Source: Escherichia phage PGN829.1
Strand: one strand, 5' to 3'
Length of the DNA stretch: 64,000 nucleotides
Sequence record: NC_070871.1
This document shows positions 47,438 through 50,475 of this stretch, piece after piece. The notes under the pieces were generated by a model. It had not been told where the DNA came from. It saw only the letters and a list, made by a program, of their open reading frames with translations, and did no database searches. Both the position numbers and the translations under genes were made by a program. The first letter of the stretch is position 1; each line of letters begins with the position of its first letter.

Positions 47438-47938
47438 CTAAACTAACACCCAGTCTTCAGCTAATATATCTGATTGGGATGGGACCCAAGGCATAAACTG
47501 GTTATCAACAGTTTTGATTCCTAACCATGGACGAGGTTTCAATTCATCAGCAAGTCCTGGACGCTCTAAGCTACTGCTATTCCATTCTTGAGCAGCAACG
47601 TACTCAATGTACATTCCTTTACCATTCCAGCCTTTACGGGCTAGTTTGAAGCCGGATTTGAGAAGCTCTACTGCATGACCAAAGGTGCAACCTTTTTCTA
47701 CGTCATGGTACGCAGTTTCAAATGCAGATTTAGGTGACCAGCTAATATAGCCACGGAACTGAGGATGGTTAGACTTAGAGTCTGGGTACTCTACTAAGTA
47801 ACCTTCTTCTAATGGGTCCTCATTAGCAGGTACATCCCAGCCACGAAGTTTGCAGTATGTTTCTTTGTTCATTCGGAAACCATTTACACACTTGGTTCCG
47901 ATATAATTGGTAAAATGGACTTTAATTTCTTCTGACAT
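47438..47938 (-). CDS. DUF2829 (Tad2-like) domain protein
   Basis: C-terminal ELLKSGFKLARKGWNGKGMYIEY ... FMPWVPSQSDILAEDW matches recalled DUF2829 signature; start at MSEEIK with GAGGT RBS. Confidence 0.5.
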   Translation of the reverse strand: MSEEIKVHFTNYIGTKCVNGFRMNKETYCKLRGWDVPANEDPLEEGYLVEYPDSKSNHPQFRGYISWSPKSAFETAYHDVEKGCTFGHAVELLKSGFKLARKGWNGKGMYIEYVAAQEWNSSSLERPGLADELKPRPWLGIKTVDNQFMPWVPSQSDILAEDWVLV

Positions 47939-47956
47939 AACTACCTCAAATGAGAA

Positions 47957-47988
47957 AGCCCTCACTAGGAGGGCTTGTTTTGTTTTGG
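47957..47988 (+). terminator. hairpin with plus-strand T tract (terminator-like)
   Basis: agccctc-acta-gagggct followed by GTTTTGTTTTGG on plus strand. Confidence 0.4.
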
Positions 47989-48056: not shown

Positions 48057-48437
48057 TCAGATTGTACAACCACCACCATCACAGGTGTTGTTTTCTGCAA
48101 AGGAAGCCAGAGCTTTAGCAGTCTCTTCTTTCTCATGCAGTACCTGACGTAGCAGGTAACCTTCTAATTCCCAAATCTTATTGAATGCATTTTCATATGC
48201 ATACTGACGGCCTTTTTGCTCATCATAGATAGCTGGGTCAACACAGGCAGATACACCTTCAACTTTGAAGCCATTTTCCAAGATGATAATGCAATAGGTT
48301 ATCAGACCCAGGTTAGCCAAATCATCTGCCGGGAGTGCAGATGGATCAACAAATGCAGACTTCACTGCATCAGCTCCATTAAAATAGTAGACGCTCTTAA
48401 TCTTAGCTTCGATTGCTTCTTTACTTACTGTTGCCAT
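48057..48437 (-). CDS. hypothetical protein (possibly N4 gp49-family)
   Basis: Start at MATVSK with GAGG RBS; family assignment from memory only. Confidence 0.35.
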   Translation of the reverse strand: MATVSKEAIEAKIKSVYYFNGADAVKSAFVDPSALPADDLANLGLITYCIIILENGFKVEGVSACVDPAIYDEQKGRQYAYENAFNKIWELEGYLLRQVLHEKEETAKALASFAENNTCDGGGCTI

Positions 48438-48604
48438 TATTAGCCTCATAGAGTGGTTTGAGTTTGTACTTAAACATGACTGCGTTGTTATAGGCTACGC
48501 TACCTGCAAACACCAAAGACTTGCGTCCTCGATTATCCGTTACCTCATAGGCATACGGGGTTGAGATTAGGTCAATCATATTGATTATCCAATTATTAAT
48601 ACTC

Positions 48605-48643
48605 AAATAAAAAAGTCCCCCAGAGTGACGGCTCCAGGGGACT
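48605..48643 (-). terminator. intrinsic terminator
   Basis: 7-bp stem agtcccc/ggggact with internal pairing, followed on minus strand by a long T tract. Confidence 0.5.
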
Positions 48644-49325
48644 TAGTACTATTTACCCATAGCTGGGAGGCTTTTGGTTCTTACCACGAAGACAGTCCAC
48701 GCTGACCAGGCTTGGGATTGATAGTCCCGTTCCTGTGGTAATTACTCAGGCTAGGATTTAAGGAGTTCCTATTCTCCAGCGAAATTCCCGTCGAAGGGAA
48801 TAACAATACAATAGCAGCCACTGGACTGTCTTACCAGTGTTGTCTTTAGAGTGCGGTGCAATCAGGACTATGTTACTGCTAAATAGGTGAGTCATGCCAG
48901 ACTCTAACTGGCTCCTTCTTCGCAATCCTTACATACCCCTACATAATTATTGCGTTAAGCTTTTTTGTTTAAGTTTAAGTGAAGGCGTTCTTGCTGACTC
49001 ATAATAGGGTGGGCGTTTGACGAATGACTAGTTCGTTACTACCCATTTGCCATAAGTACCTGGCGACTTGGGTTTGAGGTGGGAGTCCGAGTCCTGTACA
49101 GCCTTACCGTTAACACATTGGCAGCGTATCTAGAATTGCACTTCCGGCAACTGGATTTAACTGTTACACCTCAAATATGGTAGGGGCGTCCAGAAGTCTC
49201 ATCTGGTACTTACGCCGTCGTATGGTTACGACTTACCCCCATAATTCTTCCAATTCAGAGTAGCACTGTCACGGTAGGTGCTTTAAATGCCGGGAAACAT
49301 TTAAATATACAATGCTACTTTGAAT

Positions 49326-49448
49326 TGGTTATCAGTGAAGGATTCGAACCTCCGGTTGGAGTCTATAGCTTACCGCAGCAGCCCTCCAATCTAGCGGTGT
49401 CACACTTAGTCCAAACTTGAACATGTCAAGCCATCTCGTGCAACTGAT
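49326..49448 (-). ncRNA. tRNA-like element 1 (T-arm, acceptor, encoded CCA; non-canonical length)
   Basis: Minus strand GGAGG-TTCGAAT-CCTTC T-arm, 3' ACTGATA-A-CCA; perfect 5' partner TATCAGT lies 124 nt upstream; no canonical cloverleaf found by hand. Confidence 0.3.
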
Positions 49449-49450
49449 AA

Positions 49451-49516
49451 TTGGTTCCGGCGTCTGGACTCGAACCAGAACACTCATGCCGTGCACGGCA
49501 CTAGTACCTACACCGG
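49451..49516 (-). ncRNA. tRNA-like element 2 (T-arm, acceptor, encoded CCA; too short for a canonical tRNA)
   Basis: TCTGG-TTCGAGT-CCAGA T-arm, acceptor TCCGGTG/CGCCGGA, 3' A-CCA; 66 nt; 2 nt from element 1. Confidence 0.3.
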
Positions 49517-49697
49517 AATAAATTGCCAGGGATTCCACCTGGCTCCATCTGTTTTTAAAGTCACTCAGATATCGTCTGGACTTGTTGTGGAGTGACGCAC
49601 CACCTCACTCTTAAATGTTAACCCATTCCCAGCCCCACAACACACGCTACGGTTAAGATTATTGCGCATGGTGTATGGTCTTGCTGGTCACAACGGA

Positions 49698-49780
49698 AAG
49701 AGCACTTGCGGAGTCGAACCGCCTTGTCTTCTAGAGCTTTCGCATATAACTAATCGCTAGTCTACGTCACCCGTAATGCT
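49698..49780 (-). ncRNA. tRNA-like element 3 (T-arm plus 7-bp acceptor, no CCA)
   Basis: GGCGG-TTCGACT-CCGCA T-arm; acceptor GAGCATT/AGTGCTC; 83 nt; no anticodon arm found by hand. Confidence 0.25.
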
Positions 49781-50475
49781 CTTTCCTGTTATGTTCCCTG
49801 ACTTATTAATCACACCTCAGGGACGCAGTGCGCCGAATTTGTTTACAAGGAATCGGAAGACCTTGCTGACTTACAGGCTATTACGCCGCCATCAGAATAA
49901 CATCATCGTTTGCATTTATGTAATTGGTTCGTTTCTAAAAAACCGCATAATCGCTTACGAAAACTATCAAAGAGTACACTAAGCACAGGTAGCTATCCTG
50001 CCGTCTTCTCTACCTACACCGGCTACAGTGTAGACCTCCGCACGTTAGCTTAATATACTCATTGATAGGATGTTATAATAGGGGAGGGAGGACGAGTCCC
50101 TCTTTACCCTATGATTTAGTTTACACGTAAGACCTAACATTTCAATGCTGGATGAATAGAGTAATGAACTATCCGACATTAATGGTTAATGTTGTGCTCA
50201 GCATGAGCGTTAGTTGATAAGGGATCTGAAGCCTTATCCCAAAGATACTAACCTTTGGGATATAGCCTAAGATTCAGAAATGGCCACTATAGGGAGAGGC
50301 CATTGATTAACCCGAATGTTGCTTTACATTTTCTGTGATAACCCATTCTTAAAATAGTCTGTCTGACGGATGGGGGGCCACCCCTAGCGTCAGTGCCATA
50401 CGGCAAAGATTAAGTTAAGAAAGGTTATGATAGGAGTTCCTATCTCAAAGGATTCTAACAGAACCCTTCACGATA

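What the first reader, a model, noticed from the sequence alone, without database searches (positions are those of the whole stretch)
49326..49780. Cluster of tRNA-like T-arm and acceptor elements that do not fold as canonical tRNAs
Three minus-strand elements carry near-consensus T-arms (GGAGG-TTCGAAT-CC, TCTGG-TTCGAGT-CCAGA, GGCGG-TTCGACT-CC), each followed by a 7-nt strand with a perfect or near-perfect complementary partner upstream. Two end in an encoded A-CCA, and elements 1 and 2 are only 2 nt apart. Three 11-nt T-loop matches within 450 bp is far beyond chance. The implied lengths (123, 66, 83 nt) are wrong for a cloverleaf, and I could not find D or anticodon arms by hand; element 2 has a 12-nt perfect palindrome (gccgtgcacggc) where the anticodon arm should be. 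They may be decayed tRNA genes, tRNA-like small RNAs or RNase P/CCA-enzyme processing handles.
Basis: seen in the sequence. Interest (0 to 1): 0.55.

Follow-up and report, generated by a model that had tools for sequence, protein, structure and literature searches.

The report
Phage tRNA-like RNAs beside tmRNA-like tag
The three odd "tRNA pieces" are real, conserved, non-decoding tRNA-shaped RNAs in a 1.5-kb gene-free RNA island of an N4-like phage, and right next to them sits an unannotated RNA carrying a tmRNA-style protein-degradation tag found in hundreds of enterobacterial phages.

Summary
Three GGTTCGANTCC T-loops lie on the minus strand within 380 nt, each next to a complementary acceptor-type stem, and two are followed by an encoded ACCA. 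ARAGORN and Rfam call no tRNA.

The elements are not decayed genes. Elements 1 and 2 keep their acceptor, T and central stems through compensatory changes across Escherichia and Klebsiella N4-like phages. Element 2 is also present in phage N4 itself.

Element 3 is different. Its "acceptor" is a 12-bp helix that recurs in many phages with interchangeable caps, and only some caps carry a T arm. That helix sits immediately 3' of an unannotated tmRNA-like unit at 49968-49795. The unit has a pseudoknot, a resume codon, the 10-codon tag ANDDVILMAA, a stop codon and a second pseudoknot.

This tag unit occurs in about 500 phage records and 137 of 5426 E. coli genomes. All 20 tag variants are 10 codons long with synonymous variation, and 13 base pairs covary. 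No alanine-type (G3:U70) acceptor accompanies it.

Best reading: a co-transcribed RNA operon in which tRNA-like "top halves" are matured by the host tRNA-processing machinery and punctuate or stabilise the RNAs. Element 2 may instead be the tRNA-like partner of the tag RNA. The mechanism is inferred, not shown.

The parts
49972..50060 (-). Long hairpin H0' upstream of the tag unit. It has a 13-bp stem (GAGUAUAUUAAGC/GCUUAGUGUACUC) and a structured cap of about 63 nt.
   Evidence: Read directly from the sequence. The 3' strand AGUGUACUC-UUUGAUAG is conserved in Gamaleyaviruses and aligns with the H3 strand AGUGCUCUUUCC-GAUAG of other phages.
49795..49968 (-). tmRNA-like tag unit. It comprises a conserved 5' GAUAGUUUUCGU and a PK1-like fold (GUUUU 49964-49960 with AGAAAC 49936-49931; UUAUG 49950-49946 with CAUAA 49920-49916). 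Then come AUAAAU, resume codon GCA at 49913, the tag ANDDVILMAA and stop UAA at 49883-49881. Downstream are helix P5 (49895-49891 with 49870-49866), a hairpin at 49865-49846 whose loop pairs with 49836-49833, and an H-type pseudoknot PK2 at 49832-49795.
   Evidence: Sub-threshold Rfam tmRNA hits: tmRNA_permuted 30.7 bits, E=6e-4; beta_tmRNA 22.3 bits, E=2e-4. Twenty unique tag sequences in 32 loci are all 10 codons plus a stop, with third codon positions the most variable. Of 22 proposed pairs, 13 show changes on both sides and 94% of cells are paired, against 34-45% for slid controls.
49695..49786 (-). Element 3 (H1 module): a 12-bp helix GGAAAGAGCAUU/AGUGCUCUUUCC closing a cap with small hairpins and a T-arm-like hairpin (GGCGG UUCGACU CCGC, 49723-49708). 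There is no CCA.
   Evidence: MFE -32.6 kcal/mol, z = -3.27. The helix is conserved with different caps in EC1-UPM, PD205, DS8, ZX4 and about 20 metagenomic or prophage loci. The same cap as here occurs in L058. Other T-arm caps occur in L099, L044, L036 and L113. Det7 keeps the helix with a different sequence.
49584..49694 (-). Pseudoknot-rich domain closed by GUUGUG...CACAAC. Inside, ACAACACGCGC pairs with GCGUGUGUUGU, UUAACC with GGUUAA, and there is a hairpin GAGUGA...UCACUC.
   Evidence: Conserved at 75-84% in the siphophages DS8 and ZX4 as well as in Gamaleyaviruses. The pairings are read from the sequence and were not formally tested.
49524..49581 (-). X block: a hairpin GUC-CAGA...UCUG-GAC, an A-rich linker, then a hairpin CCAGG-UGGAAUC-CCUGG.
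   Evidence: It lies 67 nt upstream of element 2 in every one of the 14 N4-like loci that carry element 2, N4 included. It is also present in DS8 and L045 without element 2. RNAalifold finds compensatory pairs in both hairpins.
49452..49517 (-). Element 2: a 66-nt tRNA-like RNA without a D arm. It has a 7-bp acceptor, a UAGG linker, a long central arm topped by the GCCG-UGCA-CGGC palindrome, the T arm UCUGG-UUCGAGU-CCAGA, A73 and an encoded CCA. The base at -1 is U.
   Evidence: MFE -26.4 kcal/mol, z = -2.38. Across 7 distinct variants 98% of cells are paired and 5 pairs show double changes, in the central arm and the T stem. It is present in N4, Gamaleyavirus and Kaypoctavirus.
49326..49449 (-). 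Element 1: a 124-nt expanded cloverleaf-like RNA. It has a 7-bp acceptor, a composite arm with an inner hairpin, a 6-bp arm with a 22-nt nearly invariant loop, the T arm GGAGG-UUCGAAU-CCUUC, A73 and an encoded CCA. The base at -1 is U.
   Evidence: Across 8 distinct variants 99.6% of cells are paired. Double changes occur at three acceptor pairs, one inner-hairpin pair and one T-stem pair. In KP8 and Kpn16-P2 it sits in a different place in the island, about 130 nt after the resume codon (the position the H1 module holds here), so it is an independent module.
49259..49319 (-). Another H-type hairpin (AGUAGCAUUG/CAGUGCUACU) that shares the GCAUU/AGUGC core of the H helix.
   Evidence: Read from the sequence. 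Not analysed further.
49178..49240 (-). Element 0: a fourth minihelix ending in ACCA. It has a GGGGG.../...CCCCU closing stem, a GUCGUA-ACCA-UACGAC hairpin and a T-arm-shaped hairpin CCAGA-UGAGACU-UCUGG without the T-loop sequence.
   Evidence: MFE -23.2 kcal/mol, z = -2.56. It occupies the same slot as a ~130-nt 'double-T-arm' tRNA-like module in EC1-UPM, UE-M6 and KP8. The acceptor of that module covaries, GACGGG/CCCGUU versus GGCAAG/CUUGCC.
49076..49172 (-). A closed structured module of about 97 nt (GAGGUG...CACCUC).
   Evidence: It is conserved in N4, where the closing stem is GUGGGAUG/CAUCCCAC.
48605..48644 (-). Intrinsic terminator that ends the RNA island (13-bp stem followed by UUUUUUAUUU).
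   Evidence: Found by the terminator scan. The equivalent terminator precedes gp48 in N4.

Best explanation
The three elements are functional, tRNA-derived but non-decoding RNA modules. They lie in a ~1.5-kb gene-free RNA island (about 50100 to 48605, minus strand) between the SSB/resolvase genes and gp48 of an N4-like (Gamaleyavirus) phage.

The island is a string of structured modules, all on one strand, ending at one strong terminator. In order they are: a long hairpin, a tmRNA-like tag unit, element 3, a pseudoknot domain, the X hairpins, element 2, element 1, a hairpin, a fourth ACCA minihelix and a closed module.

Proposed mechanism (inferred). The island is transcribed as one or a few precursors. 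Host tRNA-processing enzymes recognise the tRNA 'top halves', meaning a 7-bp acceptor stacked on a 5-bp T stem, a canonical T loop, U at -1 and A73-CCA. RNase P would cut at their 5' sides, and 3' trimming with CCA repair would finish their 3' ends.

That processing would cut the precursor into stable small RNAs. It would also define the ends of neighbouring RNAs, including the tag RNA. The variable middle arms would be the 'cargo'.

Element 3 is not an independent tRNA-like gene. It is one version of a conserved long-helix module that brackets the tag unit and happens to carry a T-arm cap.

Shown: the elements exist, are conserved, covary and are not canonical tRNAs, and the neighbouring tag unit is under RNA-structure and peptide-level selection. 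Inferred: co-transcription, RNase P/CCA processing and stability.
For: No canonical tRNA or tmRNA is called.

Compensatory changes maintain exactly the acceptor, T and central stems of elements 2 and 1.

The elements sit in the slot where relatives carry genuine tRNAs: N4 has Asn, Ser, Thr and Pro; KP8 has Asn, Pro and Gln; UE-M6 has Ile. They use the same punctuation, an encoded ACCA followed by a 2-5-nt AU-rich spacer.

Modules are shuffled as units between phages. Element 1 sits before or after element 2, and element 0 is allelic with a double-T module.

No conserved ORF lies in the region. A single strong terminator closes the island.

Element 3's helix recurs with interchangeable caps on either side of the tag unit in N4-like, siphovirus and lambdoid loci. 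In Sf13 and several siphophage contigs a real tRNA follows within 5-7 nt, in Sf13 directly after the tag unit's terminal hairpin and in the siphophage contigs after the tRNA-shaped terminal domain. RNase P would therefore define that RNA's 3' end.
Against: There are no RNA-level data, so processing, stability and co-transcription are all inferred.

Element 1's MFE is no better than that of shuffled sequence (z = +0.33). Its structure rests on covariation from only 8 closely related sequences.

A pure 'handle' role does not explain why the interior loops of element 1 are nearly invariant. It also does not explain why element 2 is always preceded by the X block.

Element 3 has no CCA, and its 12-bp stem continues into flanking pairing (CAUAAC/GUUGUG). 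That makes it a poor RNase P substrate.
Confidence: 0.5

Rival explanations
1. Element 2 (and the analogous tRNA-shaped terminal domain in siphophages and lambdoid prophages) is the tRNA-like domain of a re-ordered phage tmRNA. In this arrangement the tag template comes first and a complete tRNA-like domain with CCA follows. The two would act together, in one piece or as two base-paired pieces, in trans-translation to add the phage-specified tag.
For: The tag is under peptide-level selection but has no start codon or Shine-Dalgarno sequence, and an in-frame UAG lies 9 codons upstream. It therefore needs a tmRNA-like entry mechanism.

In 13 of 16 N4-like loci that have the tag unit, X plus element 2 follows within about 200-340 nt.

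Siphovirus and lambdoid loci carry a tRNA-shaped terminal domain after the tag unit. It has a 9-bp closing stem, and its D-like and T-like loops can kiss through GCUGA/UCAGC, which becomes GUCGA/UCGAC in DS8.

Two Mooglevirus-like contigs have, directly after the tag unit, a tRNA-like RNA with no D arm that carries G3:U70, A73 and CCA and that ARAGORN does not call.

Element 2 lacks a D arm, as the tmRNA tRNA-like domain does. A phage 'TLD-only' RNA is already known in DS6A (PMC4131195).
Against: Elements 1, 2 and 0 and the terminal domain have no G3:U70. Element 2 has C3-G70, so canonical alanylation fails.

N4 has X plus element 2 but no tag unit.

Sf13 and L119 have only a canonical tRNA-Arg after the tag unit. 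L096 and L142 have no tRNA-like domain there at all.

RNase P would be expected to separate the tag RNA from a 3' tRNA-like domain, and no conserved inter-piece pairing was found.

A 5' extension on an acceptor stem is hard to accommodate at the ribosomal A site (established knowledge).
Confidence: 0.2
2. The tRNA-like modules are decoys or sponges for host factors that recognise the acceptor/T-arm half of tRNA. Candidates include defence toxins that modify or cleave tRNA 3' ends, and processing or modification enzymes. On this view the modules are an RNA-based counter-defence.
For: Selection acts on the 'top half' (acceptor, T arm, ACCA) while the D and anticodon parts are replaced.

Several different ACCA-ended modules are kept side by side and turn over quickly between related phages.

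The island abuts a gene with a Thoeris anti-defence 2-like domain, so it lies in an accessory, counter-defence-type region.
Against: No defence system or binding partner is identified.

Cellular tRNAs vastly outnumber any decoy, so simple titration of a catalytic toxin is unlikely (established knowledge).

The nearly invariant interior loops of element 1 suggest a specific function beyond the top half.
Confidence: 0.12
3. They are neutral relics: pseudogenised tRNA genes left over from the tRNA array that relatives still carry at this locus.
For: ARAGORN and Rfam fail to call them.

Relatives have real tRNAs in the same island, and module content varies between close relatives.

Some records annotate them as tRNA-OTHER, tRNA-Undet or pseudo.
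Against: Double compensatory substitutions keep the stems paired: 5 pairs in each of elements 1 and 2, with 98-100% of cells paired against 25-48% for slid controls.

Element 2 is retained across three genera, including N4.

Loop sequences are nearly invariant.
Confidence: 0.08
4. The region encodes small proteins, or is a DNA-level element such as a promoter or recombination site, and the RNA-like features are incidental.
For: ORFs of 68 aa exist on both strands: 49332-49538 (-) and 49776-49982 (+). The latter hits phrog_26260 at E=7.5e-7. Some records annotate hypothetical proteins here.
Against: The plus-strand ORF is broken by stop codons in most homologous loci.

The minus-strand ORF spans elements 2 and 1, which are not adjacent in KP8.

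Neither ORF has a Pfam hit.

Substitution patterns are compensatory in helices rather than codon-like.
Confidence: 0.03

Closest known systems
tmRNA (ssrA), one-piece and permuted two-piece, including phage-encoded copies
   Same: The unit at 49968-49795 has a resume Ala codon GCA preceded by AUAAAU. It has a 10-codon tag, ANDDVILMAA, against ANDENYALAA in E. coli. The stop codon lies in a helix and pseudoknots lie on both sides. The sequence gives sub-threshold Rfam tmRNA matches. Phages are known to carry tmRNA genes: mycobacteriophages and Bacillus phage G (PMC4131195), and 402 of 18,146 phage genomes by ARAGORN (PMC9004378).
   Different: There is no tRNA-like domain formed by the 5' and 3' ends and no G3:U70 acceptor. 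In several phages a sigma-70 promoter sits about 55 nt before the resume codon, so no 5' acceptor half exists. Any tRNA-like domain lies wholly downstream, which is the opposite gene order to permuted tmRNA. ARAGORN and Rfam gathering thresholds both fail.
TLD-only mini-tmRNA of mycobacteriophage DS6A (and ~65-nt CDS-less plastid tmRNAs)
   Same: Element 2 is about 66 nt. It has an acceptor, a T arm and one further helix, no D stem and no decoding loop. This is the same general architecture (PMC4131195, PMC11915505).
   Different: Element 2 has C3-G70 and U1-A72, not the alanine identity pair. It shows no sequence similarity to the tmRNA tRNA-like domain in Rfam searches.
Stable tRNA-like small RNAs in phage tRNA clusters (T4 species 1 and 2 / RNA C and D)
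   Same: These are non-decoding RNAs embedded in a phage tRNA array, matured by the tRNA-processing pathway, with tRNA-like 3' ends (my own knowledge; not checked here).
   Different: They belong to a different phage family and no sequence relationship was tested. The function of the T4 RNAs is also unknown.
tRNA-like processing handles (mascRNA at the 3' end of MALAT1; viral 3' tRNA-like structures such as TYMV)
   Same: A tRNA-shaped element next to a longer structured RNA. RNase P and CCA-adding activity recognise it and so define the RNA ends (my own knowledge).
   Different: Those are eukaryotic or plant-virus systems. Here there are several elements in tandem with encoded CCA, in a bacteriophage.
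AgvB/AsxR anti-sRNAs of lambdoid prophages
   Same: The lambdoid versions of the tag RNA lie in the same pR'-to-lysis 'moron' region. They are rich in CACAAC, the GcvB target motif that AgvB uses (PMC4104026).
   Different: AgvB and AsxR are 51-60-nt Hfq-binding sRNAs with their own terminator. They have no tag frame, pseudoknots or tRNA-like parts.

Membership tests
canonical tRNA | Recognised as a cloverleaf by tRNA finders or covariance models | tested here: not met
   ARAGORN finds 0 genes in the window. There is no RF00005 hit for elements 1 or 2 even at E<=10 in a 631-nt search. Element 3 gets only 18 bits against tRNA-Sec, E=0.77.
canonical tRNA | 7-bp acceptor stem stacked on a 5-bp T stem with a 7-nt T loop (UUCRANY), a discriminator base and 3' CCA | tested here: met
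   Met by elements 1 and 2. Element 3 has a 4-bp T stem, a 12-bp closing helix and no CCA.
canonical tRNA | D arm, and an anticodon arm with a 7-nt loop | tested here: not met
   Element 2 has no D arm, and its central arm ends in a 4-nt loop; this arm covaries. Element 1 has a 22-nt loop on its third arm.
tmRNA | Tag reading frame that begins at an Ala resume codon, has no start codon, ends in a hydrophobic Ala-rich C-terminus and is followed by a stop | tested here: met
   The frame is 49913-49881, ANDDVILMAA plus UAA. All 20 unique variants have 10 codons plus a stop, with synonymous variation, and the other frames are not conserved.
tmRNA | Pseudoknots flanking the tag frame, with the stop codon region in a helix | tested here: met
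   P5, the hairpin-loop pseudoknot and PK2 have 13 pairs with double changes. The PK1-like helix CUUUG/CAAAG changes to UUAUG/CAUAA in the window.
tmRNA | tRNA-like domain made by pairing of the 5' and 3' ends, with G3:U70 and A73-CCA | tested here: not met
   Promoters lie directly upstream of the tag unit in DS8, ZX4 and Sf13. No G3:U70 acceptor lies beside the tag unit except a D-armless element in two Mooglevirus-like contigs. ARAGORN calls no tmRNA in any locus.
tmRNA | Alanylation, SmpB binding and tagging of stalled-ribosome products | not testable with these tools
   Needs biochemistry or proteomics.
two-piece (permuted) tmRNA | An acceptor piece ending in CCA encoded upstream of a coding piece that starts with the 5' acceptor strand | tested here: not met
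   The order here is tag unit first and tRNA-like modules downstream. Each tRNA-like module contains both of its own acceptor strands.
tRNA pseudogene | Absence of selection on structure (stem-breaking substitutions accumulate) | tested here: not met
   98.1% and 99.6% of cells are paired, with 5 double-change pairs in each element. No shuffle reached the observed covariation score.
bacterial/phage Y RNA (YrlA-type, tRNA-like module on a long stem) | Match to the Rfam Y RNA/YrlA models; a Ro-binding stem | tested here: not met
   No such hit at E<=10 in the window or at E<=5 in a lambdoid locus. Ro binding is not testable.

The most novel reading that the evidence does not exclude
The island encodes a new class of phage tmRNA-like system: a tag-template RNA that lacks its own alanine-accepting tRNA-like domain.

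It could work in one of two ways. It could act with a non-canonical downstream tRNA-like domain (element 2 here, the kissing-loop terminal domain in siphophages and lambdoid prophages). Or it could hijack the host's charged tmRNA, for example through its invariant 5' seed UAGUUUUCGU, which is complementary to codons 3-6 of the E. coli ssrA tag.

Either way, stalled-ribosome products in infected cells would receive a phage-specified tag (ANDDV[I/V]LMAA, ANEEMYLAVA, ANDEQFLAVA and others) instead of ANDENYALAA.
Probability: 0.25. Interest if true: 0.9.

Novelty: new variant of a known kind. Interest (0 to 1): 0.72.

Why it matters
N4 is a classical model phage. Its 1.5-kb gp47-gp48 gap, and the equivalent gap in Gamaleyaviruses, has been treated as empty or as "tRNA-OTHER".

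This work shows that the gap is a modular operon of selected, non-decoding tRNA-shaped RNAs. In most relatives it also holds a tmRNA-like tag RNA. That tag RNA is shared by at least five unrelated phage groups: N4-like, DS8/ZX4-type siphophages, Ackermannviridae, Ounavirinae and lambdoid prophages.

If the tag is used, phages of enterobacteria reprogram ribosome rescue and protein tagging with an RNA that standard tmRNA finders cannot see. The way a tag template works without a canonical tRNA-like domain would then be a new question for the trans-translation field.

Even if it is not used that way, the tRNA-like modules are a clean bacterial case of tRNA mimicry put to a purpose other than decoding.

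Tried and rejected
1. Canonical tRNA or tmRNA. ARAGORN on the window and on 15 related loci, and Rfam at gathering and at E<=10, call nothing for the three elements.

2. Protein-coding explanation. The ORFs on both strands have no Pfam match. The plus-strand ORF hits a PHROG of unknown function but is interrupted by stops in most homologues. The minus-strand ORF spans modules that are not adjacent in KP8.

3. Search for an alanine-type acceptor. I looked for a 5-bp/7-nt T arm followed by a 7-nt strand with U70, and a partner with G3 within 900 nt, in 32 loci. The hits were real tRNAs or chance combinations, apart from one D-armless element in L103 and L093.

4. Complementarity of the conserved 5' end to E. 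coli ssrA. It is 10-11 nt long at ssrA nt 96-107. However, 29 of 500 shuffles of the 200-nt region also give at least 10 nt, so it is kept only as a lead.

5. Identity with the AgvB/AsxR anti-sRNAs. They lie in the same lambdoid region but are different RNAs.

6. Wider sampling. The IMG/VR pattern search for element 1 gave only 3 loci. The species-representative genome scan for the tag unit gave only 2 prophage hits, in Pseudocitrobacter and Pantoea.

7. Literature. Five full-text searches found no description of a tmRNA-like RNA in enterobacterial phages or of these N4 elements. The library is incomplete, so this is not proof of novelty.

8. Lower stem of element 2's central arm (columns 12-15 with 35-38). 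It is only partly supported, with 3 unpaired cells and no double changes.
Full report
**What the window is.** It carries a 3456-aa virion RNA polymerase ORF, an N4-type SSB, resolvase-like proteins and a gp49/66-family protein. Its DNA matches Gamaleyavirus (G7C-like, Schitoviridae) phages, up to 98.9% over the region of interest. The finding lies in a ~1.5-kb stretch with no credible ORF. This stretch runs from the genes after SSB to the gp48-like gene and ends at a strong minus-strand terminator at 48644-48605. Phage N4 has the same gap between gp47 and gp48.

**Checking the observation.**
- GTTCGANTCC occurs three times in the 64 kb, all on the minus strand within 380 nt. Shuffles give a mean of 0.23.
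- Element 2 is 49517-49452 and element 1 is 49449-49326. Each has a 7-bp acceptor-type stem, a 5-bp T stem, a canonical T loop, A73 and an encoded CCA. They are 2 nt apart.
- Element 3 is really 49786-49695. It is closed by a 12-bp helix and has no CCA.
- ARAGORN finds nothing in the window. Rfam finds nothing at gathering scores. It finds no tRNA-model hit for elements 1 and 2 even at E<=10.
- So both the observation and the statement that these do not fold as canonical tRNAs are confirmed.

**Are they decayed genes? No.**
- I collected variants from N4, Gamaleyavirus and Kaypoctavirus (Klebsiella) genomes.
- For element 2, 7 distinct sequences keep 98.1% of cells paired. Five pairs changed on both sides, for example UGCC/GGCA to CGUU/AACG in the central arm and UCUGG/CCAGA to GUUGG/CCAAC in the T stem. 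Slid controls pair at 28-45%.
Element 2 is therefore a tRNA-like RNA without a D arm: acceptor, one long arm and a T arm.
- For element 1, 8 distinct sequences keep 99.6% of cells paired. Double changes occur at three acceptor pairs (UAUCAGU, UACCAGU and UACUGGU, each with a matching 3' strand), one inner-hairpin pair and one T-stem pair.
- Element 1's other two arms and its 22-nt loop are almost invariant.
- Element 2 is present, 1 nt different, in phage N4 itself.

**The modules behave as independent cassettes.**
- Maps of 17 N4-like loci show element 1 after element 2 in Gamaleyaviruses. In KP8 and Kpn16-P2 it sits elsewhere in the island, about 130 nt after the resume codon, where the window has its H1 module.
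- Element 2 is always preceded, 67 nt upstream, by a two-hairpin 'X block'.
- A fourth ACCA-ended minihelix lies at 49240-49178 (z = -2.56). It is allelic with a ~130-nt double-T-arm module in relatives, and that module's acceptor also covaries.
- Genuine tRNAs occupy the same island in relatives: Asn, Ser, Thr and Pro in N4; Ile in UE-M6; Asn, Pro and Gln in KP8.
- Those tRNAs use the same punctuation, an encoded CCA followed by a short AU-rich spacer.

**Element 3 led outside the given coordinates.**
- Relaxed Rfam scanning gave tmRNA hits just upstream: tmRNA_permuted at 30.7 bits (E=6e-4) and beta_tmRNA at 22.3 bits (E=2e-4).
- The sequence reads AUAAAU GCA AAC GAU GAU GUU AUU CUG AUG GCG GCG UAA. 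This is a tmRNA-type resume codon followed by the tag ANDDVILMAA (49913-49881).
- BLAST shows that this unit is widespread. 523 of 50,697 phage records match the 534-nt query, mostly across the tag region.
- The matching phages include DS8/ZX4-type siphophages, Ackermannviridae (Det7), Ounavirinae (Sf13, where it sits inside the tRNA array) and N4-likes.
- A lambdoid version is in 137 of 5426 complete E. coli genomes, between the Q antiterminator and the holin, with nothing annotated.
- In 32 loci there are 20 distinct tag sequences. Every one has 10 codons plus a stop. Third codon positions vary the most, and Ala, Leu, Asp, Asn, Phe and Glu codons vary synonymously. The other two frames are not conserved.
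- There is no start codon, and a conserved in-frame UAG lies 9 codons upstream.
- The flanking RNA structure covaries strongly. Of 22 pairs in P5, a hairpin whose loop forms a pseudoknot, and an H-type pseudoknot, 13 show changes on both sides. 94% of cells are paired against 34-45% for slid controls.
- The helix just before the resume codon changes from CUUUG/CAAAG to UUAUG/CAUAA in the window.
- The antisense ORF that PHROGs has clustered is broken in most loci.

**What element 3 is.**
- It is the module immediately 3' of this tag unit.
- These caps fall into several recurrent types. Some carry a T arm next to the 3' strand (window and L058; L099, L044 and L036; L113). Most do not.
- Det7 keeps the helix with a different sequence. 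Sf13 has a plain hairpin there.
- So the T arm of element 3 is a feature of one cap type, and the 'acceptor' is a family-wide helix.

**Is there a tRNA-like domain for the tag?**
- DS8, ZX4, L124, L038 and Sf13 have a near-consensus sigma-70 promoter about 55 nt upstream of the resume codon. No 5' acceptor half can exist there.
- Siphophage and lambdoid loci end in a tRNA-shaped domain. It has a 9-bp stem GUUGUGGUG/CACCACAAC, a D-like hairpin and a T-like hairpin. Their loops can kiss through GCUGA/UCAGC, which is GUCGA/UCGAC in DS8. This domain is often followed directly by real tRNAs.
- N4-likes have X plus element 2 after the tag unit.
- None of these has G3:U70.
- Some loci have the tag unit with only a canonical tRNA-Arg after it (Sf13, L119) or nothing tRNA-like (L096, L142).
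- The only alanine-type acceptor beside a tag unit is a D-armless element in L103 and L093.
- The invariant 5' end UAGUUUUCGU(C) is complementary to nt 96-107 of E. coli ssrA, which are tag codons 3-6. By shuffling this is only marginally unusual, 29 of 500.

**Interpretation.**
- The firm conclusions are anatomical and evolutionary. The three elements are real, selected, tRNA-derived and non-decoding. Element 3 belongs to a widespread, unannotated tmRNA-like RNA.
- For mechanism I commit to the reading that fits every locus. The island is a co-transcribed RNA operon. Its tRNA-like top halves, together with real tRNAs where present, are matured by RNase P and the 3'-end/CCA machinery. That punctuates and stabilises the RNAs (confidence about 0.5).
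- The main rival is that element 2 is the tRNA-like partner of the tag RNA. The tag's peptide-level selection demands some route into the ribosome, which keeps this rival alive. The missing alanine identity and the loci without a partner weaken it (about 0.2).
- A decoy role (0.12) is suggested only by context, namely a Tad2-like gene next door.

**Known relatives and novelty.**
- Phage tmRNAs are known, but they are canonical ones that ARAGORN detects (PMC4131195, PMC11915505, PMC9004378).
- I found no description of this enterobacterial-phage tag RNA or of the N4 tRNA-like modules in five full-text searches. The library is incomplete.
- I rate it a new variant of known kinds (tRNA-like RNAs; tmRNA). 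There is a real chance that the tag RNA works in a way not yet described.

Noticed in passing
window 49968-49795 (-); also L002, L004-L006, L128 and about 25 IMG/VR loci: An unannotated tmRNA-like tag unit (tag ANDDVILMAA here). It is shared by N4-like phages, DS8/ZX4-type siphophages, Ackermannviridae, Ounavirinae and lambdoid prophages. It shows strong covariation and peptide-level conservation, but no canonical tRNA-like domain accompanies it.
   Followed up: yes
window 49968-49957 (-) versus E. coli K-12 ssrA nt 96-107 (L134): The invariant 5' end of the tag RNA, UAGUUUUCGU(C), is perfectly complementary to tag codons 3-6 of host ssrA. It stays conserved even in loci (L044, L103) where its proposed internal pairing partner AGAAAC is absent. 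A match of this length occurs in 6% of shuffles.
   Followed up: partly
window 47438-47965 (-): A 175-aa ORF with a Pfam Tad2-like (Thoeris anti-defence 2-like) domain (E=2.8e-24). It lies two genes downstream of the RNA island, after a gp49/66-family gene at 48057-48449.
   Followed up: no
In EC1-UPM, UE-M6 and KP8 the same slot holds a ~130-nt module with two canonical T arms and a covarying acceptor.
   Followed up: partly
window 49172-49076 (-) and L129 (N4) 1870-1975: A ~97-nt closed structured module conserved between this phage and N4. Its closing stem differs between them, GAGGUG/CACCUC versus GUGGGAUG/CAUCCCAC.
   Followed up: no
L002 2932-3057, L006, L076, L078, L091, L095 and others: A tRNA-shaped terminal domain of the tag RNA in siphophages and lambdoid prophages. 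It has a 9-bp stem, and its D-like and T-like hairpin loops are complementary (GCUGA/UCAGC, or GUCGA/UCGAC in DS8). The 3' strand CACCACA is followed by ACCA, GCCA, ACAC or similar.
   Followed up: partly
L103 ~1893-1974 and L093 (Mooglevirus-like contigs): Directly after the tag unit lies an 82-nt tRNA-like RNA without a D arm. It has a UCU anticodon-type loop, G3:U70, A73 and CCA, and ARAGORN does not call it. Related phages (Sf13, L119) have a normal tRNA-Arg(UCU) in that place.
   Followed up: partly
window 49594-49584 (-) and linkers in many loci (for example L032, L045): The C/A-rich linkers CACAAC and CACCACAACACAAC between modules match the CACAACA target consensus of the host sRNA GcvB. 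That is the motif used by the prophage anti-sRNA AgvB, which lies in the same lambdoid region.
   Followed up: no
window 49776-49982 (+): A 68-aa ORF antisense to the tag unit matches phrog_26260 (unknown function). It is interrupted by stop codons in most homologous loci, so this PHROG is probably a family of over-called ORFs on a conserved RNA gene.
   Followed up: yes
whole window: This phage has no canonical tRNA gene in the 64 kb, whereas close relatives carry tRNA-Ile(AAU) and other tRNAs in the same island.
   Followed up: partly
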